Counted from the stretch's first letter, positions 3,787-25,323 are shown. The stretch: DNA of 25,323 bases from a virus (IMGVR_UViG_3300027887_000046:1-25323), one strand, 5' to 3'. Program-made: numbers and translations. Notes: generated by a model not told the origin, from the sequence alone.

Positions 3787-4767
3787 TTACGGAGTCAATA
3801 CCGCAAACGGGAATCGGGCGGCAGCTGCGCCGGCCACGTTCATTCGGGTTGGCGGGTTTGGAAGAGCAAAGCCCAGGCGGATAACGGCGCGCATGGCAAC
3901 CATGTCTTGCTGTGCCAGGTTGTAAACAATGGCTCCGGTTGCATCCTGGATTACAGCTTGATCGAGGATCTTGTACGTGATATCCTGGCGCATCGAATAA
4001 ACCAGCTGATCCCACTGACCCATAATAGCGGTACAAGTGGCTGCCGGCATCGTTCCATCCGACGCAAAGTAGATCGGCGTTCCGTCCAGATCATACCGGC
4101 TGGGGTCTTGCATATTGGCCTTGAAGATAGGCATACCATTGATATCGCGCACATTGCGTAAAGCACCCTTTACCCCAGGGTGGGCAATTGTACCGGTTAC
4201 AGCAAAACCCTGCGCTTCAACCGCCATGAAAGTACCCAGGACACCTGCACCGGTCATGCCGAGTAATGCTTCGTACAAATCGGCATAAGCCAGCAAACTC
4301 AAAGTTTGAGCTGCCGCAGTTGCACCAGCCACTAGGCCAGCTGCACCGTTAAGGTCAACCGTCCAGGTTGCGGGGATGTTCGTGCCTGAAATTACGGCAT
4401 TGGTAATGGCGATACTTAAGGCGCGCTCCATTTCAGGGCGGATTTCACCCCAGATGTCATAGCTGGCATCGTCCAAAACGGCTTCTGGAATTGGCACAAT
4501 TACCGCCAACTCTTCCGCATCCACAAAACGGTTAGCCCAGTTGACCTCGGAGGTCTGCTTGAGTCCGGTATCACCGGTCACAAAATAAGCCGTGGCCAGC
4601 GCGCTCATGATCGGGAGCCGGCGCTGATTGGTGCTCATGTTCGGGAGCCGGCGCGCCAGGCGCATGATCGGATTCATTTCTGGCAGGTTAGCCAGAATTT
4701 CGTTGCTGATCTCAACCGGAACTAGACTGGCTGCGTCAGCACGTGAAATAATATTATTGTAAGGCAT
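3787..4767 (-). CDS. Major capsid protein (HK97 fold)
   Basis: 326 aa with LVPVEIS.EI, AYFV.G, ELAVIVPIPEAVLDDA and NLAQQDMVAMRAVIRLGF motifs; AAGGAG RBS; follows the scaffold gene. Confidence 0.93.
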   Translation of the reverse strand: MPYNNIISRADAASLVPVEISNEILANLPEMNPIMRLARRLPNMSTNQRRLPIMSALATAYFVTGDTGLKQTSEVNWANRFVDAEELAVIVPIPEAVLDDASYDIWGEIRPEMERALSIAITNAVISGTNIPATWTVDLNGAAGLVAGATAAAQTLSLLAYADLYEALLGMTGAGVLGTFMAVEAQGFAVTGTIAHPGVKGALRNVRDINGMPIFKANMQDPSRYDLDGTPIYFASDGTMPAATCTAIMGQWDQLVYSMRQDITYKILDQAVIQDATGAIVYNLAQQDMVAMRAVIRLGFALPNPPTRMNVAGAAAARFPFAVLTP

Positions 4768-4785
4768 GGTAAAACTCCTTTTATG

Positions 4786-5328
4786 TTATTGACGACCTGC
4801 CGCTCTGCGGATCAAGTCATTCATGCTTTCGTTTTTTGGTGGGCTTCCCGTACCGTTGCCAGCGTTTGACCTGGGGGCTGCTACGCCAAACAATTCCGGC
4901 GCAGCTGCCTTGATTGCGGGCCAATTCGGGATGCCGCGTTTATCGAACAAATCATCTGAAACCGCAACCGCAAAAGCCGCTTTAGGATTTCGACAGCCAA
5001 TCTCAGGCCGGGTAGAGTCCTCATAAAAACTAGCGCGCTTTTCTGCGATCTCGTATTTTGCCGCCATTTCGGTTAAGGCTTTCTCAGCATCCGAACCTTT
5101 GGCGAGCTTTCCGGCTGCCTCTCGCAGCTCCTTTGCAAACTGATCCCGCTCCTCGCGGGTGGCTTTAACCGTGTTTTTTAAACCGGTTACGTGTTCCTCG
5201 TAAGCAGCTTTAACTTTCTCGTCTTGCTGCCCTAACCAGACATCAAACTGGATCGGCTGTTCTTGTTCTTGCTCTTGCTCCGGCTGGCTTTCCGGTGGGG
5301 TTGGTGCTGCAGGTGGTTGATTAGTCAT
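4786..5328 (-). CDS. Capsid scaffolding protein
   Basis: Acidic, Pro-rich N-terminus, coiled coil, PELFG motif, Gly-rich linker and C-terminal MNDLIRRAAGR; directly upstream of MCP. Confidence 0.85.
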   Translation of the reverse strand: MTNQPPAAPTPPESQPEQEQEQEQPIQFDVWLGQQDEKVKAAYEEHVTGLKNTVKATREERDQFAKELREAAGKLAKGSDAEKALTEMAAKYEIAEKRASFYEDSTRPEIGCRNPKAAFAVAVSDDLFDKRGIPNWPAIKAAAPELFGVAAPRSNAGNGTGSPPKNESMNDLIRRAAGRQ

Positions 5329-8877: not shown

Positions 8878-10263
8878 TTATCCTTGATAACTCTTTGCTT
8901 TTATTCTTCCTGCCTGGTGGGTCAAGCTCCCAAAAGCTCCGCTGGCCGCATCCATCTCGTCATCATGTGGCAGGTCCGGCTGCCCGTGCATATGGTTTAG
9001 CCAGCGCTCGTTCCAGGGACCAGCTAAAAGATATACGTTGCCCACCTCTGCCTGAGCTGCCAATGGTTTGGCTCTCACCAGTTTGTCTCCTGCGCTGGGT
9101 ATGCCGCGAGCATCGATCCCGGCCATCTGCTTGGTTATGCGGTAGCTCTCGCGCTTACCCGCACTACCTGGCTCCTGTTCCCAGCGGCTGAGATATTGCC
9201 GTCCCTCTTCTTTAAATCTCGTCTGGTCCTGACGAGTAATATTCTCATACGTCCGGTCCAGCTCTGCCGGAGAGATCCGTTCTGCCGTGGTATCCAAAAT
9301 ATAATAGCTGCCATTAACTATCAACATCAGGTCACTCGCTGTGTAGTCTGGATCGTCTTTGTTTAACTCTTTTTCTGTGGCCGCAAAGTCCCAATATCTG
9401 GCAACTATGCCGCCGGCAGGTATGGCCTCGACTACTTTAAACCAACTCCGGTTAAACACTTTGCCAGCAGATGGTTTTATTTTCCAATTGCCACCACGTT
9501 TGGGATCGCCTAAGAGTCTTTCACGATCTACCAATGGCAATGCTTGCAACTTTGCTAAATATCCTGGATCCTTTTCTAACAAAATCTTGTTGTCATGCAC
9601 TGTTGACGGCACAAACGTGACTGAGATCGGCTGCAAATCTGGATACAATGCCATCAGCTCTGCCTGAGTATTTGCCCACTGCAGCTCCTCGTTGACGCGC
9701 ACAAACCACCTGATCTTGCCCGATCTCTCTAAATCCGCATAACCATCCTCAGCGATCCACCAGCTTAGAAAATCAGCTAGCCAACCAGGCTCCGGGTTGC
9801 AGGTAGCGCGTGTATAGGGTCTAATCCCGCACATCGATCGGTTGCGGGAAAGCAAGTAAAAAAACATTTTCTCTGAAAAGTGCTCGAGCTGGTCAAAACA
9901 AATTAGCGGGATCTGTGAGCCCTGGTAGCTCTCCAGGTCTTTCTCATATTGCAAATGGGCAAAGGTCACTCTGGCACCACTGTTGAAACGCCAATACAAA
10001 TCGCCCTTCAATGCCCTGGCTCCCATCAACGGGTAAATCTTTTCACTTTCATCCCACATGCCGCCCTCGTTGACAATCTCGGGATAAGTACGCCGGAAGA
10101 TGACCGCGCCAAACTCAGGGTTTTTGTAATGTCTCAGGGGCTCGATCAGCATGGACCAGGTCTTTCCCCCTCCCGCGCTGCCGCCAAATATTGCCACATC
10201 TGCCGGGGAGCTCAGGAATATTTCCTGTGGCCCCAGCTGCGGCTTAATCTCGACTGTTTCCAT
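8878..10263 (-). CDS. terL: Terminase large subunit
   Basis: GPQ Q-motif, Walker A GGSAGGGKT, atypical Walker B LICFDQLE, motif III RATCNP, nuclease YWDFAA and HDDEMDA. Confidence 0.95.
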   Translation of the reverse strand: METVEIKPQLGPQEIFLSSPADVAIFGGSAGGGKTWSMLIEPLRHYKNPEFGAVIFRRTYPEIVNEGGMWDESEKIYPLMGARALKGDLYWRFNSGARVTFAHLQYEKDLESYQGSQIPLICFDQLEHFSEKMFFYLLSRNRSMCGIRPYTRATCNPEPGWLADFLSWWIAEDGYADLERSGKIRWFVRVNEELQWANTQAELMALYPDLQPISVTFVPSTVHDNKILLEKDPGYLAKLQALPLVDRERLLGDPKRGGNWKIKPSAGKVFNRSWFKVVEAIPAGGIVARYWDFAATEKELNKDDPDYTASDLMLIVNGSYYILDTTAERISPAELDRTYENITRQDQTRFKEEGRQYLSRWEQEPGSAGKRESYRITKQMAGIDARGIPSAGDKLVRAKPLAAQAEVGNVYLLAGPWNERWLNHMHGQPDLPHDDEMDAASGAFGSLTHQAGRIKAKSYQG

Positions 10264-10612
10264 CTCGCTGATTTTCAGGCAAATACAGGATCACACTGAT
10301 CGGGGCTTCCGGCACGCCGGCCAGCTCCTGCCGTTCAACATAGCCTCGGTTGCGACCAACGGTTTTTAACGCAAACATGATAGCTGGCAGGCTGCCGTTA
10401 CGCACATGCTTTGCCAGTCCTGCCTCAGCCATGTCCAGAAACTTTTCTCGCTCTTCTTCGGTGGCCGCCTTGATCGTTGGATAACGCTCGACATATTTGA
10501 AAACTGTCTGCCGGGTAACTCCAAGCTTGCGCGCAGCTGCAGCTAGAATGCCGTGGCTGGCCCTGATCGCTTCGATTACTTCATCTGCCGTGTGTCCGTT
10601 AACTCGTGACAT
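10244..10612 (-). CDS. terS: Terminase small subunit (N-terminal HTH)
   Basis: AAARKLGVTRQTVFKY HTH, D.AE..L, AI.FALKT.GR.RGYVER; overlaps the terL start. Confidence 0.85.
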   Translation of the reverse strand: MSRVNGHTADEVIEAIRASHGILAAAARKLGVTRQTVFKYVERYPTIKAATEEEREKFLDMAEAGLAKHVRNGSLPAIMFALKTVGRNRGYVERQELAGVPEAPISVILYLPENQRDGNSRD

Positions 10613-10635
10613 AGTTACTTCTTAAAGCGTAAGTT

Positions 10636-10670
10636 AAACACAAACCGCCTGGCATTTCTGCCCAGGCGGT
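10636..10670 (-). terminator. Terminator/attenuator hairpin in the terS leader
   Basis: ACCGCCUGG...CCAGGCGGU 9-bp stem followed by UUGUGUUU. Confidence 0.65.
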
Positions 10671-10692
10671 AAAGCTGGCAATTCCCATATCT

Positions 10693-10733
10693 ATTATATC
10701 ACCCATTGTCTAAACATCTTTGATGTTTAGACA
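10693..10733 (-). promoter_or_regulatory. Late promoter (extended -10) with a perfect 12-bp inverted repeat over the -35 region
   Basis: TGATATAAT at 10693-10701; TGTCTAAACATC-ttt-GATGTTTAGACA at 10707-10733; no canonical -35. Confidence 0.6.
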
Positions 10734-10958
10734 TCTTCGTAACAAGTTTGCCAGCATCACATCATTCGTAGCAAAATGAAATTCCTGTCCGCATATACAG
10801 GAGCCATGCAAAGACCGCGTAATCAAACTGCCGGTCTTAAATAACGGCAGGTTATCGATCTTGACCATCTCACCTAATAAAACGTGACAGCTGGAACAGT
10901 AGATTATATTTGGGTCTGCCGGGACCACAAAAATAGTCGTTAGTATTTCAGGCATCAA
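10710..10958 (-). CDS. Zinc-ribbon protein (Com-like), candidate late regulator
   Basis: YCSSC..LLG and C.CG motifs; directly upstream of the terS promoter. Confidence 0.6.
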   Translation of the reverse strand: MMPEILTTIFVVPADPNIIYCSSCHVLLGEMVKIDNLPLFKTGSLITRSLHGSCICGQEFHFATNDVMLANLLRRCLNIKDV

Positions 10959-11184
10959 TCAGCTCCTTTTCTGCCGTTACCGGCTCAATCATAAGCCTGG
11001 AGCTACCGTTATCTGCCGTTATCAGACCAAAGCGTTTCTCAGGATGATACATGACTAATAATAGACCGCCATCGTTTCGAAGCGAATAAAATACTTTCCA
11101 CCCCGCATGACCGGCCTCTGCCGTTACCGCCATGATCAGGCCGGCAAGTTCATCATCATTGATTGGTGTCATCTTACGAGGCAT
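10948..11184 (-). CDS. Hypothetical protein
   Basis: ORF 10948..11247; the likely start is MPRKMTP (about 11184), after a GGAG RBS, overlapping the upstream gene end. Confidence 0.55.
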   Translation of the reverse strand: MPRKMTPINDDELAGLIMAVTAEAGHAGWKVFYSLRNDGGLLLVMYHPEKRFGLITADNGSSRLMIEPVTAEKELIDA

Positions 11185-11461
11185 CTTTACGCTCCATTTC
11201 TTCGAGGGCGGAACAAAGGTCATTAAATTCCTTTTCCCATTTATCACCCTTATATGGCATACCGTGATTGTACGCCAAACTCCACACAGCGTAGTATTCC
11301 TGTGACTGTGTAATAACTTTCATCTTTTCAATCAATTTCTTCGCCGTCTCCAAAACTGCCGTTATTGCATCAAACTTAGATTGTTCGATACAAACCATCT
11401 TCGTTGTTCTTTTAGGTGGCATCATTACAGCCATATCATCATCATTCGTTTCAGTTTGCAT
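11174..11461 (-). CDS. Hypothetical protein
   Basis: 95-aa ORF in the operon, overlapping both neighbours. Confidence 0.55.
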   Translation of the reverse strand: MQTETNDDDMAVMMPPKRTTKMVCIEQSKFDAITAVLETAKKLIEKMKVITQSQEYYAVWSLAYNHGMPYKGDKWEKEFNDLCSALEEMERKDAS

Positions 11462-11630
11462 ACTCTTCCGCCTTATCTCTGGTTATATTTTTGATGGTCC
11501 CTAAATAGCGCGTTTTTCTTTTCCTGCCGTTATCTCTGGAGCCGCGCTCGCGCAACTGCCAGACCGTTCCATTATGCGCCGGCTCAACCCGCCAACCTGT
11601 CGTTAAAGTACTCCAGGTGATGGGCTGCAT
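11451..11630 (-). CDS. Small basic protein, candidate three-stranded beta-sheet (arm-type) DNA-binding domain
   Basis: Not in the ORF track. Translated by hand: MQPITWSTLTTGWRVEPAHNGTVWQLRERGSRDNGRKKKTRYLGTIKNITRDKAEEYAN (59 aa). Fills the gap between genes. Confidence 0.6.
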   Translation of the reverse strand: MQPITWSTLTTGWRVEPAHNGTVWQLRERGSRDNGRKRKTRYLGTIKNITRDKAEEYAN

Positions 11631-11647
11631 ATTATTTAACTCTGCCG

Positions 11648-12454
11648 TTACCTCGCCGCTTTGCGAGGACGAGTAGGGTTTGCCGGTGGAGGCGTGATGA
11701 TAACGGCAGGATCCACATCTTTGGCTTCACCATCAATCACCTGGTAAGCCAATGTATTATGTTCCTGGCGATACTTTTTAATCTCGTGATTAAATGCTCT
11801 TTGCATGGCCAGATCCGCATCCATCCCGAAGGTCTTGGCAATCTCTTCGGCCATCAATTTTGCCTTCCGCTCCGCCACGATCGGCAGGGCAGCCGCAAGC
11901 ATCGTGCGGGTGAGCTCAATCCCCGTATCCGTGGCCTCTTCCTGGATTGCCAATTCGGCTGATGCTCGAGCAGCTCGCAACTTCTCGTCGGCAGCGCGCC
12001 GCCTGGAGTTTTCGAAGATCCTGGATAGCGTTTCGTTGTAATCTTCCGATGCCGCAAAATACGCAATCCCCAACAGCAGGTGGATGATAACGGCAGCCTC
12101 AATAACTATTATGGTTACGGTTGAGACCCACGGAGGTGTGATGATAAAACTCTGCATTCGCAGGATCTCAAAAGTTGCCATGCTGAGCTCACCGACCAGG
12201 CTGATCCCTAGCCCGGCCCACGCTAGCCCGATCTGCGCGCCGGACCGGTTAGAGTCTTCCCGCGCGCTAAATGCAGTAATCAAATACACCCACGTTGCTA
12301 TACTAAAAAACACCATCCCCAAAATCACAAACAGGATGTCTTGACGAAATACATCCATAAGCATTAGCAAATTTAGTCCTGCCACAGATAGCGCAGTTGC
12401 TACAAAGAAGAATTTCTTTACCCATTCACCTAAAAATCGAAATACACCGCTCAT
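11648..12454 (-). CDS. Membrane protein: four TM helices plus cytoplasmic coiled coil and Pro-rich/basic tail
   Basis: Four hydrophobic segments in aa 15-135, then a charged heptad-like region; AAGGAG RBS. Confidence 0.75.
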   Translation of the reverse strand: MSGVFRFLGEWVKKFFFVATALSVAGLNLLMLMDVFRQDILFVILGMVFFSIATWVYLITAFSAREDSNRSGAQIGLAWAGLGISLVGELSMATFEILRMQSFIITPPWVSTVTIIVIEAAVIIHLLLGIAYFAASEDYNETLSRIFENSRRRAADEKLRAARASAELAIQEEATDTGIELTRTMLAAALPIVAERKAKLMAEEIAKTFGMDADLAMQRAFNHEIKKYRQEHNTLAYQVIDGEAKDVDPAVIITPPPANPTRPRKAAR

Positions 12455-12470
12455 ATTGATAATCTCCTTT

Positions 12471-12659
12471 TTATTTGATATCTTTATTTGAAATGACGCT
12501 CATCAAAAAAATTATGAGCATGAGCACAAAAACCATAACAGCAGCTCCAGCTGTGAATATCACCATCTCGCTATCACTTCTTTTCAGCGCATCGATAAAA
12601 ATAATAGCGATCACGAACTGAAGAGCAAACACGATAAAAAATCTTAGACTTCGGCCCAT
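12471..12659 (-). CDS. Small two-TM membrane protein
   Basis: 62 aa with two hydrophobic helices. Confidence 0.6.
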   Translation of the reverse strand: MGRSLRFFIVFALQFVIAIIFIDALKRSDSEMVIFTAGAAVMVFVLMLIIFLMSVISNKDIK

Positions 12660-12662
12660 AAA

Positions 12663-13556
12663 TCAAACCATCCTTTCCAACATCCTAATTGCTTCGTTAT
12701 TTGACAGCCCATAAAGCCTGGCATACAAATCAATCACATCCATTGCCTTGCTCGTGCATCCCGAAAAGCAGCCACAGATCTGTTTCTGAGTATCGATCCA
12801 GAACGATGGGTTTTTATCATCGTGAAATGGGCAGTGAGTTACTAAATAACTGCCGCCTGATTTGCGCGTCTTGGTAAAAAATTGCTGGATCTCCAGAGTC
12901 TTTTTGATCTTGGCAACCACACCCTTGCCTGCTGCTGGCTGGGCTTGCCAGGCAGCTACCCACGGATCATCGGTAATATTTTGTTGTACTGGCTGCTGAA
13001 TATTCGGTGTGGGTGTATCCTGGACCAACAGCTCAGCAGGCAGTACCTCAGATAATGTTAAGATCTTTGGCAAGATAATCGCTTGTTTTAAAGCTAAATA
13101 TTCAACACCTGTTGGGTGGATCGAGCCAGGTCCCAACACATAACCGCGAAACTTAATATCAATCTTGCCAATCTTCCGGTTTTGTCCTGCTGTCTCACAC
13201 CTGAGATAAACATGTACTCCCCGGCTAGTCTGGACTTGAAACGCTGTCTCAGCGATCTCTTTAGATTTTTGCTGCTTATAAGCCCAAATGCGCCACCGGC
13301 TGTATTCGTTGGCGTCATCGAAATCCAGCATCATCAGGTTGAGCCAGCCAGCGACAACACCATAATTGTGTGGAGTTGCAAACCAATGCGTAAGATCCTG
13401 CTCAGTAGGTAGCTGCTTTTTATATGGCTCCCAGGTTGGGTGGCCGTCCGCGTCTTTTGGCAATAGCTGGGCGTCCGGCCTTTTATCTTTGTATTTTATG
13501 GGGATCACAGCGATGCCAGTATTTAAGAACTGAGTAGCGGAAGTGATGTTGCTCAT
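12663..13556 (-). CDS. Bifunctional primase-polymerase (Prim-Pol) with C-terminal CHC2-type zinc finger
   Basis: GIAVIPI...KRP, NYGVVAG, LDFD, TSRGVHVY and GYVLGPGSIHPTG motifs; C-terminal CPFHDDKNPSF...CFSGC. Confidence 0.88.
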   Translation of the reverse strand: MSNITSATQFLNTGIAVIPIKYKDKRPDAQLLPKDADGHPTWEPYKKQLPTEQDLTHWFATPHNYGVVAGWLNLMMLDFDDANEYSRWRIWAYKQQKSKEIAETAFQVQTSRGVHVYLRCETAGQNRKIGKIDIKFRGYVLGPGSIHPTGVEYLALKQAIILPKILTLSEVLPAELLVQDTPTPNIQQPVQQNITDDPWVAAWQAQPAAGKGVVAKIKKTLEIQQFFTKTRKSGGSYLVTHCPFHDDKNPSFWIDTQKQICGCFSGCTSKAMDVIDLYARLYGLSNNEAIRMLERMV

Positions 13557-14110: not shown

Positions 14111-14124
14111 TTTTCTCCTTCTTT

Positions 14125-14300
14125 TGTTACGACTGTTACGACCTGTTACGGCTTTTTGCTAGGAGGTTTAAAGTAGTATCACTTTAAGTGTTTGTTGTAT
14201 TTAAGGTTGTAACAGTCGTAACAGTCGTAACACAGAAGAGAGTATCTTCTATATAAAAGTGACTCATTCTGTGTTACGACCTGACGCGACCGTGACGACC
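14125..14300. repeat. Putative replication origin: direct and inverted TGTTACGAC iterons
   Basis: Three tandem copies at 14125-14152, three inverted copies at 14206-14232, one copy at 14272-14280 plus two degenerate copies; AT-rich spacers; lies between the helicase and nuclease/primase genes. Confidence 0.8.
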
Positions 14301-15755
14301 TCATATGATTTGCAGTCCTACAAAACCACGTTGTTGCTGTCCTCTAATACGCTCAGTGCGTTTTTCTAGATCAATTACTGTCATTGCTCTGCCAATAGCC
14401 ATACTCGCGGCTATTTGACTGCCGAATTTCACGCCTTTACTTTCCAAATGCTCAACAATATCCATAGTTGATACCCACCACATTTTTTCATTCTTATCTA
14501 TCCTAAAATATTTTTTGATTGCTGCCACTGTTAAATCTTCAATTTGATAACCATCATTAATTTCGTTAGCTTGCGTGAGCTCATCATCTGTTAGATTCCA
14601 AGGTTCGTCGGTCAGATATAAATCATAGGCTTGCGCCCAGATTTGTTCCACATCTAATTTGGAATAAGCCCAATCTACATCCAACATCTTACAGACCATA
14701 AATCTCCGGTTGCCAGTCGGATCAGATAAAAACCCACCCTCATTGTTAATGGTCCCTAAAAAACTAGCGATCGCCGGTCCCTGTATATCAAAATGCCCAT
14801 AAGGTTTTCGATCCTTCACAGTTTCTAGAGTTAAGAAAGATTTTAGACTTTCTCGGTCTCGTGTGCGAGTTGTTGAACCTAACTCGCTCACGGTCCAAAT
14901 CCAGGTGCTCATCAGCCTGATCCGACAATCTTTGTCATCTGGGTCAATTGCTCCCTCATGGTAATACTCAGGCATCGGGCTACAGAGCCAACGGGAAAAA
15001 TAATCTTTTCCAAAGCCCTGTCTCGCGTCTAAAACCAGCATGCGGTTTTGTGCTCTCTGCATGATTCGGGCAACAGATCCAACTAACCAACGTTTTAAGA
15101 ATAGTGGGAAAATATTATTGGCATCTTGAAAATAACTAGCTAACTCCGTGATCACATCTTGCCCTTGATAGGTCAAGCTTGCAAAATAATCTCTCAGCGG
15201 GTGATATCGGTTCTGCCAAGCATGTGCAATATAGGCATCCTCAGCTGCATTGATATGCTCTGCGCCGGCATCTCGCAGCTTGCCCCGGATCTCCGCAGCT
15301 AGCGAGTCGGTGATTGGCTTGCCATTAACCTCGATATTGTTTGTACACAGATTATATTTAAAGCTGTAGCCCAGGTTTTTAAGAATATTTAAATAATCGC
15401 CGGTCTTTTTTCTTTTTCCGGGAGGCGCCTGGGTCTGTGTGTATTGGTGGATTTGTCCAGCCCGTGTGCTTACCGCGCCCGATATTGCTACCTGCAGGTC
15501 ACTGGATAAATTACTTAACGCTTGCAAAAATGCCTGGTTGGGATCTCCACCCTGGATCATCGTCGCGTGGATGCTCTTCCACGGCTCGCCGTTGGGCGTG
15601 ATCAGGCTCACCGGCTGGTTGGAAGCCACCGCCCTAGCGATACACTCCAGACCGTCTAAGAAGTCAGTCTCGGGCTCAGCCGCGTAGTGACGTTCCAACG
15701 TCTGCGCGTCATTGCTGTCGATGCCTGCGTTTAAGAGGACGCGGATAAAGGTCAT
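14301..15755 (-). CDS. VapE/VirE-family P-loop ATPase (replicative helicase)
   Basis: YHPLRDY, RWLVG.VAR, QGFGK, WIW...EL, R.PYG and GTIN...FLSDPTGNRRF motifs; winged-helix-like C-terminus. Confidence 0.88.
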   Translation of the reverse strand: MTFIRVLLNAGIDSNDAQTLERHYAAEPETDFLDGLECIARAVASNQPVSLITPNGEPWKSIHATMIQGGDPNQAFLQALSNLSSDLQVAISGAVSTRAGQIHQYTQTQAPPGKRKKTGDYLNILKNLGYSFKYNLCTNNIEVNGKPITDSLAAEIRGKLRDAGAEHINAAEDAYIAHAWQNRYHPLRDYFASLTYQGQDVITELASYFQDANNIFPLFLKRWLVGSVARIMQRAQNRMLVLDARQGFGKDYFSRWLCSPMPEYYHEGAIDPDDKDCRIRLMSTWIWTVSELGSTTRTRDRESLKSFLTLETVKDRKPYGHFDIQGPAIASFLGTINNEGGFLSDPTGNRRFMVCKMLDVDWAYSKLDVEQIWAQAYDLYLTDEPWNLTDDELTQANEINDGYQIEDLTVAAIKKYFRIDKNEKMWWVSTMDIVEHLESKGVKFGSQIAASMAIGRAMTVIDLEKRTERIRGQQQRGFVGLQII

Positions 15756-15758
15756 AGA

Positions 15759-16322
15759 TTAGGCGTGAAGTAACAATTTCTCTATGCTCTTTGCCAACTC
15801 TTTTGCTCGGTCCGCCGTGATCGCCTGGCCGCCACTAGCCTGCGCCAGGCGGGTAAGAAACTCCCTCCCAGCTGGGTAGTCCTCCGGACCCGTATAAATC
15901 ACATCGATCTTATTTTTATAAGTCTTTGCCACTCTTAGCGCAGATTCACCATCATCTGGCTGCCCATCACTGATCAAAATAAACCGCATGCCTGGCACAT
16001 CAGCGACTTTAGCAAACTTGAGAGCCTTTTCCAAATCTGTCCCGCCACCTAAATACTGCGGTTGCCCAGACGGGTTAAAGACCACGTCGCTGGAAAAGGC
16101 TAGAACAGCGATCTTGCCGGGAAGGCTGTTTTGCAGGTTCTTTAGCTCCTCACAGGCCACCTCATAACGACTCTGCCCACCGCGGCTGTCCTTATCCGAC
16201 ATACTTCCGGATGTGTCCACGATGCAGATGCAGTCGGCATTGATAAACGTTTCAGCAATGCTTTTGTTGGCTGTCTTTGCCATTGCTGAGATACTTCCGG
16301 TGATAATAGCGTTATTATTCAT
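15759..16322 (-). CDS. von Willebrand factor A (vWA) domain protein
   Basis: MIDAS motif DTSGSM, GGTD, ISDGQPD; GGAGG RBS places the start at 16322 (MNNNAII). Confidence 0.88.
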   Translation of the reverse strand: MNNNAIITGSISAMAKTANKSIAETFINADCICIVDTSGSMSDKDSRGGQSRYEVACEELKNLQNSLPGKIAVLAFSSDVVFNPSGQPQYLGGGTDLEKALKFAKVADVPGMRFILISDGQPDDGESALRVAKTYKNKIDVIYTGPEDYPAGREFLTRLAQASGGQAITADRAKELAKSIEKLLLHA

Positions 16323-16467
16323 GCTTTCCTCCATGACAATTACCACATTTTTTGCATTGATAATGGATATGGTTACCCAGGCATACCCGGTTATGCGTGG
16401 TTTCCTTTTTGCATTGATGACAGATCATTTTCTGTGGCTTGAGCTGTACTAAGATATTTTTATTCAT
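16315..16467 (-). CDS. Small zinc-ribbon protein
   Basis: Not in the ORF track. MNKNILVQLKPQKMICHQCKKETTHNRVCLGNHIHYQCKKCGNCHGGKHE (50 aa); two CxxC motifs; GGAGG RBS. Confidence 0.65.
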   Translation of the reverse strand: MNKNILVQLKPQKMICHQCKKETTHNRVCLGNHIHYQCKKCGNCHGGKHE

Positions 16468-16690
16468 GCTTATTTCCTCCCGCCAGGTATAACCCTAACT
16501 TGAAAACCAGCTCCAGTGCTGCGTTCTGTCCAAAATTACTAAGTTTATCCATGAAAATGCTCATGATTGCGCTCAGTTGGGCTTTTTCTTCCAGCGGAAG
16601 CTGCATATAAATCTCGTATGGTTTTTGCAGCTTCTCCGGCACATTCGTGAAAATTATGCAGCCGTCAGGTTGTTTCCAGTATCGAGCCAT
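16460..16690 (-). CDS. Hypothetical protein
   Basis: ORF 16460..16759; the likely start is MARYWKQ at 16690, just after the upstream stop. Confidence 0.55.
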   Translation of the reverse strand: MARYWKQPDGCIIFTNVPEKLQKPYEIYMQLPLEEKAQLSAIMSIFMDKLSNFGQNAALELVFKLGLYLAGGNKHE

Positions 16691-16691
16691 A

Positions 16692-16904
16692 CTAATAATC
16701 CTTGTGCCATAAAGGACATACACCACGCTTGATGGCTTTAAGATGCCAGCAACCCTCACCGGTGGTTGGGGAATTTAATGCATCGCCTTCGCTCTGGAAG
16801 TTATATCGGTTGTAATGACAGTCAAGGCAAACAGTATTACGATATTGAACTTGCTTCATCATGCTTATTCTATGTTTCTTTTTAGTGATCTTTGTTTCTT
16901 CCAT
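16692..16904 (-). CDS. Small Cys-rich hypothetical protein
   Basis: 70 aa with CLDC...GCWH...CP. Confidence 0.55.
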   Translation of the reverse strand: MEETKITKKKHRISMMKQVQYRNTVCLDCHYNRYNFQSEGDALNSPTTGEGCWHLKAIKRGVCPLWHKDY

Positions 16905-16905
16905 C

Positions 16906-17745
16906 TCACACCCACCTCTTGTCTGGCTCTCTCGCTCCCATCGGCCAGCTAGTTACTAATGTTCTGCCTTGCGGATCTGTAATATCTTCCCAATTCAGGA
17001 TCTTCGTCACGTTAAACCTGCCTACTTTTTCGATACCCTCAGCAAGGATATAGCCGCAGCGCAGCATAGGCTTATACCCATCCATTGCAGGGGCAAAGTC
17101 ATAATTTCTCCCCAGGCTTTCTTCTAATGCCAAGCCAGCTTCGTAGCGAGCTCTCTTGTTTTCGTTGCCCAATATCTCAAAAGCTTCTTTCAGCCTGATA
17201 AACTTCTCGCCTGCGTCTGGCTCTGTGCATACGTCAGGGTGCCACTGTTTGGCTAGTCTCCTGTAGGATTGCTTGATCTCTTCTGGTGTTGCCGATCGGG
17301 AAAGACCCAACACGCCATATAAAGTTAGCGCACTGGCTTGATCGGTCATGCCCGTAAACCATTGCAATAACACGTTTTCTGGGAACACTGCCGACCAGTC
17401 GCCCTGGTCGTCTAAGCCTAAAGCAGTGCGCACGTCATAACCTGGTCGATCTTTAGTCCGGCCAACATAGTGGATCGTTAGGATTTTTATCTCGGGTTGG
17501 TTGTCAACTTTGATCTGCGGCACCATGATGTTTTGATTTAGATAACACAAGACCATCTTGGCAACCAGATCGCCGTGATGCGGAGCGATCACCCAGGCTT
17601 TTCTCAGACCGTCAAACTTTCTCTCATTTGCCGGGATCTGGCTTTTTAACGCAGAGACTAGTCCAGGATCATATGAACTGTATAAAATTAGCGATCCATT
17701 TTCTTCTGTGAGCTGTGCAGGGGAGGGTGTGCGATAGTGTCTCAT
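16906..17745 (-). CDS. J-domain (DnaJ-type) protein with N-terminal HARP-like domain
   Basis: LYGVLGL...EIKQSYRRLAKQWHPD...FIRLKEAFEIL...KRARY is a complete J-domain with HPD; the N-terminus reads YDPGLVSALK.IP...RKFD...KAWVI. Confidence 0.85.
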   Translation of the reverse strand: MRHYRTPSPAQLTEENGSLILYSSYDPGLVSALKSQIPANERKFDGLRKAWVIAPHHGDLVAKMVLCYLNQNIMVPQIKVDNQPEIKILTIHYVGRTKDRPGYDVRTALGLDDQGDWSAVFPENVLLQWFTGMTDQASALTLYGVLGLSRSATPEEIKQSYRRLAKQWHPDVCTEPDAGEKFIRLKEAFEILGNENKRARYEAGLALEESLGRNYDFAPAMDGYKPMLRCGYILAEGIEKVGRFNVTKILNWEDITDPQGRTLVTSWPMGAREPDKRWV

Positions 17746-19934: not shown

Positions 19935-19958
19935 TATTTCCTACCTTTCTTTACCTAT

Positions 19959-20033
19959 CTATCGCCAAAGGACTCGAACCTTTATCAATGCAGCCTTCTG
20001 TAGGGCCGCGCTCTGCCATTGAGCTAGGAGATA
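19959..20033 (-). tRNA. tRNA-like gene with 8-nt anticodon loop (CU-ACAG-AA), no encoded CCA
   Basis: TATCTCC-TA-GCTC-AATGGCA-GAGC-G-CGGCC-CTACAGAA-GGCTG-CATTGAT-AAAGG-TTCGAGT-CCTTT-GGCGATA-G folds into a cloverleaf with one acceptor-stem mismatch. Confidence 0.75.
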
Positions 20034-20071
20034 AGACTATTCAGTTGTTTTTCTCCATTTGCTCACGATTT

Positions 20072-22729: not shown

Positions 22730-22867
22730 TTAATCCAGGTCTGCTTCTAAAACCTGGTTGACATTCTGATATGAGGCAATGGCCTCTAACTCATGTTCTT
22801 CGCTCTCCTGCTCCAGCCATCGCTCCACGGCCTGGAGCAGGTTGATTAATGCATCTATGTTAGGCAT
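22730..22867 (-). CDS. 45-aa acidic hypothetical protein
   Basis: MPNIDALINLLQAVERWLEQESEEHELEAIASYQNVNQVLEADLD; AGGAG RBS; overlaps the cro-like stop. Confidence 0.55.
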   Translation of the reverse strand: MPNIDALINLLQAVERWLEQESEEHELEAIASYQNVNQVLEADLD

Positions 22868-23123
22868 CTAGAGTCTCCTGTGCATATAACTCTGGCTTTA
22901 AAACCGCCAAGCATTCCAGCGCCATATCTCTCCGCCAGTCATCGTATAAGAGGGTGATAACCAGAAGAAAATAATAGCCTGGATTCTGCGTGCCATTTTC
23001 CCAATAAGAGACGGATTGCTTGGTCAGGTCTCCGCCGGGTATGTGGACAAGCGCATCGGCAAAAGCTTGTTGGCTGAGTCCTTGCTGCTCTCTGTATTTC
23101 TTAATAATTTCCGGGATTGTCAT
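22860..23123 (-). CDS. Cro-like XRE HTH regulator
   Basis: IKKYREQQGLSQQAFA...TKQSVSYWENG..NP XRE signature; first gene of the early operon. Confidence 0.85.
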   Translation of the reverse strand: MTIPEIIKKYREQQGLSQQAFADALVHIPGGDLTKQSVSYWENGTQNPGYYFLLVITLLYDDWRRDMALECLAVLKPELYAQETLDA

Positions 23124-23170
23124 AAGCTCTTTTCGTCTCGCCGTGAATAATAAATCTTGTAGTGACGCTG

Positions 23171-23199
23171 ATTAAAGCACTACATGCTTATTTTGTCAA
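23171..23199 (-). promoter_or_regulatory. Early (PR-like) promoter
   Basis: TTGACA-17 bp-TTTAAT with extended TGn on the minus strand. Confidence 0.75.
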
Positions 23200-23204
23200 G
23201 GGAA

Positions 23205-23233
23205 TTGACATAACAGTTTTGATATGTGATAAT
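23205..23233 (+). promoter_or_regulatory. Repressor (PRM-like) promoter
   Basis: TTGACA-17 bp-GATAAT; its -35 is back-to-back with the other promoter (TGTCAA-gggaa-TTGACA). Confidence 0.75.
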
Positions 23234-23257
23234 TGGATAAAAGAGAGGAAGGATCGG

Positions 23258-23617
23258 ATGGAAGAACGCGAAAATATGACTCCATTTCAAATGTTTCTGG
23301 TAGATAAATTTCTCGAATACCAGAACCAAAAAAGAAAACCCGTATCTGATAATGAGTTTGCAAGATGGTTAGGGGTGAGTGCCGGTTCTTTCAATGCCTG
23401 GATTAACGCCAACAGAACACCGGATTTCAGTAATGCAGTAAAACTATCAGCACGGCTGGGGCCTGAGGTATTTGACTTGCTTGGTTTTCCCCGTATCGTT
23501 GCATCTCGTTCTCCCCAGCTGCGCTATATCGTGGAATTTTGGGAAGAGCTGGATACTGAAATGAAAGAGCTAATCTATAATCATGTAAAGGAGGAAGTGA
23601 CAAAAAGAGGAAAGTAA
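23258..23617 (+). CDS. CI-like XRE HTH repressor (no S24 peptidase domain)
   Basis: EFARWLGVSAGSFNAWINANRTP HTH; divergent from the cro-like gene; start at 23258 or 23276. Confidence 0.8.
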   Translation: MEERENMTPFQMFLVDKFLEYQNQKRKPVSDNEFARWLGVSAGSFNAWINANRTPDFSNAVKLSARLGPEVFDLLGFPRIVASRSPQLRYIVEFWEELDTEMKELIYNHVKEEVTKRGK

Positions 23618-23641
23618 TCTTTGAGAAAGGAGGTGGTAAAT

Positions 23642-23773
23642 ATGAATTTATCCAGCCAAGATAAATTGATTTATGTCGCTCAAAATTGGCTGAAGATTTC
23701 GCCATTAATGCGTTATCGCATTGTATTTATCACGTGGCGTCATCTTGTCCGGCTGCGCCGGAGTTTTTTTTAG
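23642..23773 (+). CDS. 43-aa basic peptide co-transcribed with the repressor
   Basis: AAAGGAGGT RBS; MNLSSQDKLIYVAQNWLKISPLMRYRIVFITWRHLVRLRRSFF. Confidence 0.6.
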   Translation: MNLSSQDKLIYVAQNWLKISPLMRYRIVFITWRHLVRLRRSFF

Positions 23774-23777
23774 GGTA

Positions 23778-23927
23778 GGCGAGATTTTTTAAGCACGGTT
23801 TGGTAAGTTATTATATGGGGCAAAAATATAGAATCACGGCGAGATTTTTTGTGCAACCTGATAGCTTTTGATAAGTATCATTCAGGTGTTCGTCACGCGA
23901 GAAGAAAAAAGCACGGTGAGATTTTTT
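23778..23927 (+). repeat. Three direct copies of GGYGAGATTTTTT
   Basis: GAGATTTTTT at 23781, 23841 and 23918, each preceded by GGC/GGT; copies 2 and 3 extend to CACGGYGAGATTTTTT. Confidence 0.7.
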
Positions 23928-23945
23928 ATCTTGTCGTGCTTTTTT
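23905..23945 (+). terminator. Intrinsic terminator of the repressor operon
   Basis: A6-GCACGGUGAGAU...AUCUUGUCGUGC-U6; three G-U pairs work only on the plus strand. Confidence 0.7.
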
Positions 23946-24004
23946 AATCTTTCTATGGTAAAATATTTATGTGCATGTAGGGCAAAACAGAAAAGGAAAA
24001 AATA

Positions 24005-24325
24005 ATGTTAAATGATTATGTTAGAAAAATTGGAAGCGGCCATCCTATAAAAGTACATTATCCAGGGGATAATAATAAATGGCAACCGATTTACGATCAA
24101 TTAGATAAAATGCCTGTTGTAAAATCTCCAAGAGAAAATTTAAATGATGGATGGATGTCGTTCGGTATAGTAGACAAAAAGCTTGCCGCTGGCGCAGCAA
24201 GCTCTGTGTCGTCCTATTGTGACAGGGTATTAAAATGCAAAGAAGCTAAGTGGCGTATCCAAACTACTATTGAAACAACGCCAGACGGAACTGTCCTGTG
24301 GCTCCGTAAAATCCAAATCAAATAA
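24005..24325 (+). CDS. Hypothetical protein (AT-rich island)
   Basis: 106 aa; AAAGGA RBS; TGGTAAAAT extended -10 near 23956. Confidence 0.65.
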   Translation: MLNDYVRKIGSGHPIKVHYPGDNNKWQPIYDQLDKMPVVKSPRENLNDGWMSFGIVDKKLAAGAASSVSSYCDRVLKCKEAKWRIQTTIETTPDGTVLWLRKIQIK

Positions 24326-24344
24326 TATCATATTTTTGCCTTAC

Positions 24345-24758
24345 ATGCACATATTTATGAAAAACAAACTGCCACCACCCGCAATAAAATACCGAATAAC
24401 ACTGGCTGAATTAGATCAATTACCAGATGTTTCTGGAGTCTATATTCTTGCATACATGGGGAAAGTTCTTTATGTGGGGAAAGCCAAGCATATACCAGAT
24501 CGAATTCGATGTCATTTTACTAACGCTCATAAAGAAGTATTGGGAAGTTGGATTCGCACTTACGATAATGACTGGCATAATATTCGATTAGATGTTCTTG
24601 AGGCGCCATTCGTCGGTGACGAAATGTGGATGACCTCAGCAGAAAATGCACTAGTCAAAATATTCAATCCGTTATTTAATACACATTTGCTACCAGAGAA
24701 AACGACTCTGATAGCTCCTGAAAAATTCAATCAATTAAACTTTCTCGAATATAACTAA
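24345..24758 (+). CDS. GIY-YIG nuclease (UvrC/Cho N-terminal-like)
   Basis: LPDVSGVYI...VLYVGKA..I.DRI..H...AE..L...FNPLFN; start at 24345 or 24357. Confidence 0.85.
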   Translation: MHIFMKNKLPPPAIKYRITLAELDQLPDVSGVYILAYMGKVLYVGKAKHIPDRIRCHFTNAHKEVLGSWIRTYDNDWHNIRLDVLEAPFVGDEMWMTSAENALVKIFNPLFNTHLLPEKTTLIAPEKFNQLNFLEYN

Positions 24759-25196: not shown

Positions 25197-25323
25197 TTAC
25201 GCCTCCTTTATCGGTGGGTTGATCTCTTGCACTTCAACCACAAAGTTTACCAGGTCAAGACTCAAAATCCGATATGTTCGTGAAAGCGGCTCCGGTTCTG
25301 GCTCCGGCTCCGGCTCTGGCTCG
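25197..25323 (-). CDS. C-terminal end of a protein with a Pro-Glu repeat linker (partial; possibly endolysin)
   Basis: ...EPEPEPEPEPLSRTYRILSLDLVNFVVEVQEINPPIKEA-stop; runs off the window. Confidence 0.5.
   Translation of the reverse strand, partial: EPEPEPEPEPEPLSRTYRILSLDLVNFVVEVQEINPPIKEA

What the first reader, a model, noticed from the sequence alone, without database searches (positions are those of the whole stretch)
10392..12659. Ten exact CTGCCGTTA boxes hidden across coding sequence beside a membrane coiled-coil protein and an unannotated candidate DNA-binding protein: possible DNA-tethering/spread or pac system
Seen: 10 exact copies of CTGCCGTTA, always followed by C or T, within 1.7 kb (7 plus, 3 minus) plus three 1-mismatch copies. 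I saw no exact copy elsewhere by eye, and about 0.01 copies of a given 9-mer are expected by chance in 1.7 kb. The boxes are read in different frames and strands (VTAE, ITAD, ITAV, DNGR, RNGS, LPL, AVII), so the signal is at the DNA level. The cluster overlaps a 4-TM coiled-coil gene (11648-12454) and a 59-aa basic ORF (11451-11630, W.LR.R...GRKKKTRYLG) and lies next to a 2-TM gene. Known: integrase arm-type three-stranded beta domains bind short direct repeats; Streptomyces plasmids use short clt repeats and membrane Spd proteins to spread in filaments; SPP1 TerS binds repeated boxes around pac near its own gene. Inference: either a centromere-like array bound by the 59-aa protein and anchored to the membrane by the TM proteins (partition, cell-to-cell spread or anchoring for replication), or an unusually extended TerS-binding pac region.
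Basis: partly seen in the sequence, partly recalled or inferred. Interest (0 to 1): 0.85.

Follow-up and report, generated by a model that had tools for sequence, protein, structure and literature searches.

The report
Phage self-marking DNA-box membrane module
A bacterial virus carries ten copies of one 9-letter DNA word written into a small set of optional genes; related viruses with these genes carry the same kind of cluster and a distant one carries a changed word, so a tiny protein made there likely binds the word and would, with its membrane-protein neighbour, hold the viral DNA at the cell membrane.

Summary
In detail: 10 exact CTGCCGTTA boxes at 10392-12096, none elsewhere in 25.3 kb, held by synonymous codon choice (9 of 11 box-permitting peptide sites realised inside, 0 of 12 outside). 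The boxes travel with an accessory module: 2-TM gene, multi-TM coiled-coil gene, 59-aa basic beta-sheet gene, 78-aa gene. Two relatives (L121, L123) have 10 exact boxes each and different downstream genes. A complete distant phage (G012) has a 32%-identical 59-aa homologue in the same gene order and its own clustered word, TGCTGGCAA (5 of 5 copies within 620 bp). Five complete relatives without the module lack the cluster. Boxes upstream mostly point one way and boxes downstream the other. The replication origin appears to be a separate iteron cluster (14124-14300). G012's terminase shows no significant similarity to the window's, so pac is unlikely. Most likely (inferred): the 59-aa protein coats its own array, and the coiled-coil membrane protein tethers that complex to the membrane. 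Binding, tethering, fold and host are unproven; an autoregulatory roadblock array is the main rival. No family membership test was met.

The parts
10392..12096 (.). Array of 10 exact boxes (RTAACGGCAG on the coding strand). The two inside the membrane gene (12088, 11701) face one way; 7 of the 8 downstream face the other (10842 is the exception). The switch lies between 11701 and 11650.
12471..12659 (-). 62-aa 2-TM protein, first gene of the module; carries a 1-mismatch box at 12536 that is exact in L121
   Evidence: (74% identity in L121)
11648..12454 (-). 268-aa multi-TM (3-4) protein with a long helical, coiled-coil-like tail; candidate membrane anchor; no family match above cut-off; its stop codon lies inside a box
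   Evidence: (15 homologues, 57-91%)
11451..11630 (-). 59-aa basic protein (net charge +6), predicted three strands plus helix; candidate box-binding protein; 1 exact box in its own gene here, 3 in L121, 4 in L123
11174..11461 (-). 95-aa ORF inserted between the 59-aa and 78-aa genes; absent at this place in L121 and L123, yet carries a box (11356)
10948..11184 (-). 78-aa ORF (start chosen from homologues), conserved module gene, richest in boxes (3 exact and 1 one-mismatch); function unknown
10710..10958 (-). 82-aa Cys-rich (Zn-ribbon-like) ORF, probably a core phage gene flanking the module; carries the one inverted downstream box (10842)
   Evidence: (homologue in L158, E 8e-10)
10244..10612 (-). 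Small terminase candidate (HTH); carries the outermost box (10392); a neighbour, not part of the module
   Evidence: (phrog_4044, E 4.8e-5)
14124..14300 (.). Separate iteron-like cluster (GTCGTAAC, 5 of 5 window copies) next to the VapE-like helicase; likely replication origin; distinct from the box array

Best explanation
The boxes form a clustered, polar DNA array that travels and changes with a small accessory gene module, and they are likely the binding sites of the module's 59-aa beta-sheet protein, which is predicted to coat about 1-2 kb of its own locus and would be held at the membrane by the neighbouring coiled-coil membrane protein, so tethering the phage DNA without a motor ATPase. 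Shown: the array, its maintenance by codon choice, its co-occurrence with the module, and the change of word in G012. Inferred: that the 59-aa protein is the binder (about 75%); that the membrane proteins contact it or the coated DNA (about 55% given that); and that the purpose is positioning of excised or replicating phage DNA, as for CGP3 AlpA/alpS or phi29 p16.7, rather than plasmid-type partition, since G012 has an integrase.
For: (1) DNA-level selection: 9 of 11 box-permitting peptide sites realised inside 10244-12659 (0.24 expected from codon usage) against 0 of 12 outside, Fisher p 6.7e-5; 9 of 11 in L121 and 9 of 10 in L123, the misses there being the TGACGGCAG variant. (2) L121 and L123 each hold 10 exact boxes, many at non-homologous places, and boxes extend into unrelated neighbours: terS, the Zn-ribbon ORF and the 95-aa insert here, a phrog_503 nuclease-like gene in L123. 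(3) G012 (34,815 bp, complete) has the same gene order: TM + charged-tail gene, 59-aa homologue (tblastn 32%, E 6e-5; hhalign probability 94.9%), small overlapping gene, Zn ribbon. Its word is TGCTGGCAA, 5 of 5 copies in 4461-5076; TRCTGGCAA 6 of 7; 0 of 150 simulations reached 4 copies in 620 bp. One G012 box sits in the same codon register as the window-family box in the small gene (RAGK against HNGR), and the polarity is similar. (4) Five of five complete relatives without the 59-aa gene have no multi-TM charged-tail ORF and at most 2 TRMYGGCAR in 700 bp, against 6, 12, 14 and 9 in the four module loci. (5) The 59-aa model is three strands plus a helix. Leads: Arm-DNA-bind_3 E 0.015 in 1 of 5 members and the Tn916 integrase DNA-binding domain, score 0.79. 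That this fold binds roughly 10-bp asymmetric repeats is recalled, not from a call. (6) Precedents: SpdA2 binds sites within its own gene and affects plasmid stability (PMC4170104); an integrated prophage uses AlpA/alpS to bring its DNA to the membrane (PMC4446434).
Against: No experiment shows binding. The fold is not established: pLDDT 64.8, Foldseek gave no hit at E<=0.001 in PDB or BFVD, the Pfam hit is far below cut-off and in 1 of 5 members only, and hhalign against a phage AP2 domain gave probability 0.15%. Co-variation rests on one distant genome (two words in all), which may also have another host, so a host factor is not excluded. The G012 membrane protein and small downstream protein are not detectably homologous to the window's (hhalign 2.0% and 0.35%); they match by position and hydropathy only. 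The degenerate word TRMYGGCAR was drawn after seeing both words. The polarity may in part reflect coding constraints (AAVI suits TM helices), and there are exceptions (10842 here, 706 in L123, 4766 in G012). The 78-aa protein could be the binder or the adaptor instead. L121 is present in the same sequencing run as the window's phage, so it is not an independent habitat. The module is absent from 10 of 11 related phage records, so it is dispensable.
Confidence: 0.45

Rival explanations
1. Autoregulatory roadblock array: the 59-aa protein binds the boxes to damp transcription of its own operon (keeping a possibly toxic membrane protein low) and read-through into late genes, as mycobacteriophage stoperators do; the membrane proteins are a separate effector (exclusion or defence).
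For: Boxes are asymmetric and mostly share one orientation relative to transcription: 7 of 10 here, 12 of 15 TRMYGGCAR in L121, 13 of 14 in L123, 6 of 9 in G012. The module sits at the end of the replication operon, before late genes. Stoperators are asymmetric and oriented with transcription (PMC9283540, passages).
Against: No box lies in the intergenic stretch before the module or before terS. Stoperators are described as lying in short intergenic spaces across the genome, not packed in 1-2 kb of coding DNA. The upstream boxes face the other way, and 10-14 sites is more than autoregulation needs (inference).
Confidence: 0.25
2. Entry or exclusion device: the membrane complex grips box-bearing DNA as it crosses the membrane, either helping the phage's own genome in or trapping superinfecting kin that carry the same word.
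For: Multi-TM proteins, a phage-specific word that differs between relatives, and a location just upstream of terS, which in a pac-type phage would be near a virion end (inference; termini not mapped).
Against: No termini data (contigs only). Boxes shared with kin would be lost quickly if they were only a liability, yet they are gained. No similarity to known exclusion proteins.
Confidence: 0.1
3. Binding array for a host protein (nucleoid, segregation or translocase factor) that the phage recruits; the module genes only happen to carry the sites.
For: The host genome could not be examined, and G012 may have another host. Polar words that flip at a centre recall KOPS (recalled).
Against: Five of five complete relatives without the module have no cluster. 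The array is confined to the module and its immediate neighbours in all four loci.
Confidence: 0.1
4. Extended pac region bound by the small terminase.
For: One box lies in terS (10392) and the array ends there. SPP1 pac has three sets of direct repeats spanning the promoters and start of the small terminase gene (PMC4737164, passages).
Against: G012's TerS (Terminase_2) and TerL are not significantly similar to the window's (best BLASTP E 0.29), and its boxes end about 940 bp before terS with two genes between. L121 and L123 have other genes downstream, though these contigs are too short to exclude a terS further on. Relatives without the array still encode terminases. The SF6 TerS DNA-binding domain showed little specificity for the box repeats (PMC4737164).
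Confidence: 0.06
5. Replication origin or helicase-loading iterons for the Prim-Pol/VapE replicon (P4- or SaPI-like; recalled).
For: Short repeats in two orientations downstream of Prim-Pol; a shared GTAAC core with the 14124-14300 repeats.
Against: A compact inverted iteron cluster with AT-rich spacers lies beside VapE in the window, and such a cluster lies between the helicase and Prim-Pol genes in 5 of 11 relatives (L156, L157, L158, L162, L165), four of which lack the module. G012 has both, with different words.
Confidence: 0.04

Closest known systems
Streptomyces plasmid SpdA/SpdA2 with sps (pIJ101; PMC4170104, abstract and Discussion read)
   Same: A small DNA-binding protein whose short target repeat lies inside its own coding region; an accessory stability function without a dedicated ATPase.
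   Different: sps is a 12-bp palindrome in 1-3 copies and is conserved between plasmids. Here the word is an asymmetric 9-10-mer in 9-15 copies over several genes that changes between phages; the protein is 59 aa with a predicted beta sheet, shows no SpdA match, and the element is a tailed temperate phage.
Streptomyces SpdB2/Spd79/SpdB3 with TraB and clt (pSVH1; PMC4447253, abstract and passages read)
   Same: Small and larger membrane proteins with a coiled coil encoded together; short direct repeats in cis. The nearest named ESM Atlas cluster for the 268-aa protein is SpdB_N (score 0.76, often chance).
   Different: clt repeats are bound by the FtsK-like TraB; none was seen in the window or among the G012 ORFs scanned. 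The SpdB2 coiled coil is N-terminal; here the helical tail follows the TM block. No mycelial host is shown.
Corynebacterium prophage CGP3 AlpA/alpS/AlpC (PMC4446434, abstract and passages read); phi29 p16.7 as cited there
   Same: An integrating prophage with an adaptor that binds repeats at its own operon; the proposed outcome is phage DNA at the membrane for efficient replication.
   Different: AlpC is an actin-like NTPase and alpS lies in the promoter. Here there is no NTPase in the module, the boxes are inside genes, and the partner is an integral membrane protein.
Integrase arm-type / AP2 three-stranded beta-sheet DNA-binding domains (PF13356, PF02920, PF00847)
   Same: Predicted three strands plus helix, basic, with conserved W and R residues; weak profile and language-model leads.
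   Different: Stand-alone 59-aa protein (no longer fused form found, weak evidence). No match reaches a curated cut-off, and the array is far from the integrase gene in G012.
Cluster A mycobacteriophage stoperators (PMC9283540, passages read)
   Same: Many asymmetric sites, mostly oriented with transcription.
   Different: Stoperators are 13-mers in short intergenic spaces across the genome, bound by a 183-aa HTH repressor. Here the sites are local, inside coding DNA, and flip orientation.
SPP1/SF6 pac box repeats (PMC4737164, passages read)
   Same: Short repeats near the small terminase gene.
   Different: The array is far longer, tracks the module and not the terminase type, and in G012 does not reach terS.

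Membership tests
Classical partition system (type I/II/III) | Centromere-like repeat array at the locus of its binding protein | tested here: met
   Array present in 4 of 4 module loci and 0 of 5 complete module-less genomes
Classical partition system (type I/II/III) | Adjacent ParA, ParM or TubZ NTPase | tested here: not met
   No NTPase among module genes. The only weak ParA-like score in the window belongs to the AAA_24 protein 5.6 kb away. The window is a fragment and only some G012 ORFs were scanned.
Classical partition system (type I/II/III) | Centromere-binding protein of HTH (ParB) or RHH fold | tested here: not met
   The 59-aa model is three strands plus helix; no HTH or RHH match
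Classical partition system (type I/II/III) | Protein binds the array and stabilises a replicon | not testable with these tools
   Needs EMSA and a plasmid-stability assay
Streptomyces Tra/Spd spreading system | FtsK-like TraB that binds clt repeats | tested here: not met
   None in 30 window ORFs or 9 G012 ORFs scanned. An FtsK gene occurs in G002, which lacks the module.
Streptomyces Tra/Spd spreading system | Homology of the membrane protein to SpdB | tested here: inconclusive
   ESM Atlas SpdB_N cluster at 0.76 only; no Pfam match above cut-off in 16 members; that Pfam copy may predate PF27080
Streptomyces Tra/Spd spreading system | Mycelial or filamentous host | tested here: inconclusive
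   A Chloroflexota lead from a look-alike cluster; G012 proteins are filed under a Parcubacteria bin; the window has no host genome
Integrase arm-type / AP2 DNA-binding domain | Three antiparallel strands plus helix | tested here: inconclusive
Integrase arm-type / AP2 DNA-binding domain | Profile match above the curated cut-off | tested here: not met
   PF13356 E 0.015 in 1 of 5 members; none for the G012 homologue; hhalign to a phage AP2 domain 0.15%
pac site (SPP1/P22 type) | Repeats stay linked to terS and vary with TerS | tested here: not met
   G012 has a TerS with no significant similarity and its boxes end about 940 bp before it
pac site (SPP1/P22 type) | Virion DNA end maps in the array | not testable with these tools
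   Only assembled contigs were available; no start or end pile-ups
Stoperator system | Genome-wide intergenic sites oriented with transcription | tested here: not met
   All exact boxes fall in 1.7 kb of coding DNA; G012 5 of 5 in 620 bp; orientation flips
Replication origin iterons | Compact non-coding iterons with AT-rich spacer beside the initiator, present in all relatives | tested here: not met
   That description fits 14124-14300, not the box array; the array is absent from module-less relatives

The most novel reading that the evidence does not exclude
A motor-free, phage-encoded membrane tether for DNA: a stand-alone integrase-arm-like protein coats a polar array that selection has written into the codons of its own and neighbouring genes, and an integral membrane coiled-coil protein anchors that complex. 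The word and the protein change together between phages, which gives each phage a private anchor.
Probability: 0.3. Interest if true: 0.85.

Novelty: new variant of a known kind. Interest (0 to 1): 0.7.

Why it matters
If the tether reading holds, it is a minimal, sequence-specific way to attach a replicon to the membrane without an ATPase, an old idea with few defined parts. It comes with two natural protein-word pairs (window: RTAACGGCAG; G012: TGCTGGCAA), which make the specificity directly testable by cross-binding. Even under the regulatory rival, it shows a binding site invading unrelated neighbouring genes through synonymous and amino-acid changes, including the codons of the predicted binder itself, and it defines four unannotated protein families.

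Full report
Setting. The window is a 25,323-base virus record with no further genome. It reads as part of a temperate tailed phage: capsid, Mu-F, portal, large terminase (8878-10263), a small terminase candidate (10244-10612), Prim-Pol (12663-13556), VapE-like helicase (14301-15755), vWA, DnaJ, AAA_24, ERCC4 and a divergent HTH pair. A contig of 38,810 bases encodes the identical 59-aa protein, so the record is probably a fragment. The host is unresolved: a look-alike cluster of the membrane protein is commonest in Chloroflexota, while proteins of the relative G012 are filed under a Parcubacteria bin, which may be a binning effect.

Observation. Ten exact CTGCCGTTA lie between 10392 and 12096 (7 plus, 3 minus) and none elsewhere; 18 matches with one mismatch against 4.78 +/- 2.10 expected. 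The next base is always C or T. No simulated genome reached such a cluster: 0 of 200 unfiltered, and at most 4 copies in 100 filtered simulations. Nine boxes are in ORFs and one spans the stop codon of the membrane gene. Of the peptide sites that could encode a box by synonymous choice, 9 of 11 do so inside 10244-12659 (0.24 expected) and 0 of 12 outside (Fisher p 6.7e-5). Such sites are also about eight times denser inside (4.7 against 0.6 per kb), so amino-acid sequence too has bent towards the word. The signal is at DNA level.

Close relatives. The 268-aa membrane protein has 15 homologues at 57-91% identity, and a full profile search added only two clear, more distant ones. The metagenome scan gave three loci: the window itself and two others. 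L121 (87%) and L123 (65%) each hold 10 exact boxes plus three or four TGACGGCAG variants, in the gene order 2-TM (L121 only; L123 is cut), multi-TM, 59-aa, 78-aa. The 59-aa gene varies at synonymous positions, so it is a real gene. Many boxes are at non-homologous places. Downstream of the module the window has a Zn-ribbon ORF and terS, L123 a phrog_503 nuclease-like gene, and L121 an unidentified ORF; boxes have entered terS, the Zn-ribbon ORF, a 95-aa insert and the L123 nuclease gene. In all three, boxes in the TM genes mostly face one way and those after the 3' end of the membrane gene the other, with exceptions at 10842 and L123:706. L121-type sequence is present in the same run as the window's phage.

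Distant relatives. A scan with the vWA gene gave 11 related phage records. One, L158 (G012; 34,815 bp, terminal repeats, complete), has after Prim-Pol a 215-aa protein with four hydrophobic windows and a charged tail, a 59-aa homologue (32%, E 6e-5; hhalign 94.9%), a small overlapping ORF and the Zn ribbon. It has no TAACGGCAG, but TGCTGGCAA occurs five times, all in 4461-5076, and TRCTGGCAA 6 of 7 times there; 0 of 150 simulations reached four copies in 620 bp. One box lies in the same codon register of the small gene as in the window family (RAGK against HNGR). The G012 membrane protein and small downstream protein are not detectably homologous to the window's; they match by position only. 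The other 10 records gave no match to the 59-aa profile. The five complete ones have no multi-TM charged-tail ORF and at most 2 TRMYGGCAR per 700 bp, against 6-14 in the four module loci (this degenerate word was drawn after the fact). Array and module thus occur together in 4 of 4 loci and are both missing in 5 of 5 complete genomes.

What it is not. The origin is probably elsewhere: GTCGTAAC occurs five times, all in 14124-14300 beside VapE, and a compact iteron cluster lies between helicase and Prim-Pol in 5 of 11 relatives; G012 has both that cluster and the array. Pac is unlikely: G012's terminase subunits show no significant similarity to the window's (best E 0.29), its boxes end about 940 bp before terS, and an SPP1-like TerS domain bound the box repeats with little specificity (PMC4737164, passages). 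Classical partition and Streptomyces spread fail on the missing NTPase or TraB (not all G012 ORFs were scanned), and G012 has a tyrosine integrase.

Mechanism. Most likely the 59-aa protein binds the boxes and builds a nucleoprotein patch over its own locus (inferred, about 75%). The co-inherited membrane coiled-coil protein, perhaps through the 78-aa protein, would then hold this patch at the membrane to position excised or replicating phage DNA (inferred; about 45% overall). It works like SpdA2/sps, a protein that binds sites in its own gene (PMC4170104, abstract and Discussion), and like AlpA/alpS of prophage CGP3 (PMC4446434, abstract and passages), and it resembles the Spd membrane proteins in anatomy (PMC4447253, abstract and passages), but it is a member of none. 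Rivals: autoregulatory roadblock array (25%; compare stoperators, PMC9283540, passages), entry or exclusion device (10%), host-factor sites (10%), pac (6%), origin (4%).

Novelty and verdict. Seven literature searches showed no description of this module; the library lacks most subscription papers and no supplements were read. The feature is real, conserved, tied to an unannotated accessory module, and changes its word in a distant phage. The function is inferred, and co-variation rests on two words only. I rate it a new variant of the protein-plus-own-repeat-array kind, interest 0.70; the motor-free membrane tether reading has probability about 0.3 and would deserve 0.85.

Noticed in passing
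window 14124-14300: Inverted clusters of GTCGTAAC/GTAACA repeats with AT-rich spacers beside the VapE-like helicase; a similar cluster with a genome-specific word lies between helicase and Prim-Pol in L156, L157, L158, L162 and L165. Likely origin.
   Followed up: partly
window 19958-20034 (-): tRNA-like gene; ARAGORN could not assign it (four-base anticodon field), Rfam tRNA 39 bits.
   Followed up: no
window 10707-10733 and 10645-10672: A perfect 12-bp inverted repeat with a 3-base spacer at the end of the Zn-ribbon ORF, and a G+C-rich hairpin seen by eye just upstream of terS; possible operator and terminator for the late genes.
   Followed up: no
G006, G007, G008, G009, G012 (L168-L177, L181): A dispersed near-palindromic word: TACTNAGTA 23 times in G006, 12 in G009, 10 in G012; TTACT[CG]AG 51, 40 and 34 times in G009, G007 and G008; 0 and 2 in the window. 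Candidate genome-wide operator or host motif.
   Followed up: no
G002, L179:1197-3119: FtsK/SpoIIIE-family gene in a complete relative that lacks the box module.
   Followed up: no
window 11174-11461: 95-aa ORF absent at this place in L121 and L123 (and skipped by a contig in runs X1 and X5), yet it already carries an exact box.
   Followed up: partly
window 15759-17745: vWA-domain and DnaJ-domain genes beside the helicase, conserved across related phages.
   Followed up: partly
window 22860-24758: Divergent HTH pair (cro/cI-like) followed by low-GC plus-strand genes, including a weak GIY-YIG match.
   Followed up: no
window 25288-25323: Low-complexity Glu-Pro-type repeat at the record's end that attracts many unrelated contigs; probably the cause of the assembly break.
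   Followed up: partly
window 10710-10958; L156, L159, L162-L164 after Prim-Pol: Small Cys-rich ORFs follow Prim-Pol in several module-less relatives (seen by eye; tblastn significant only for L158), which suggests that the module is an insertion between two core genes.
   Followed up: partly
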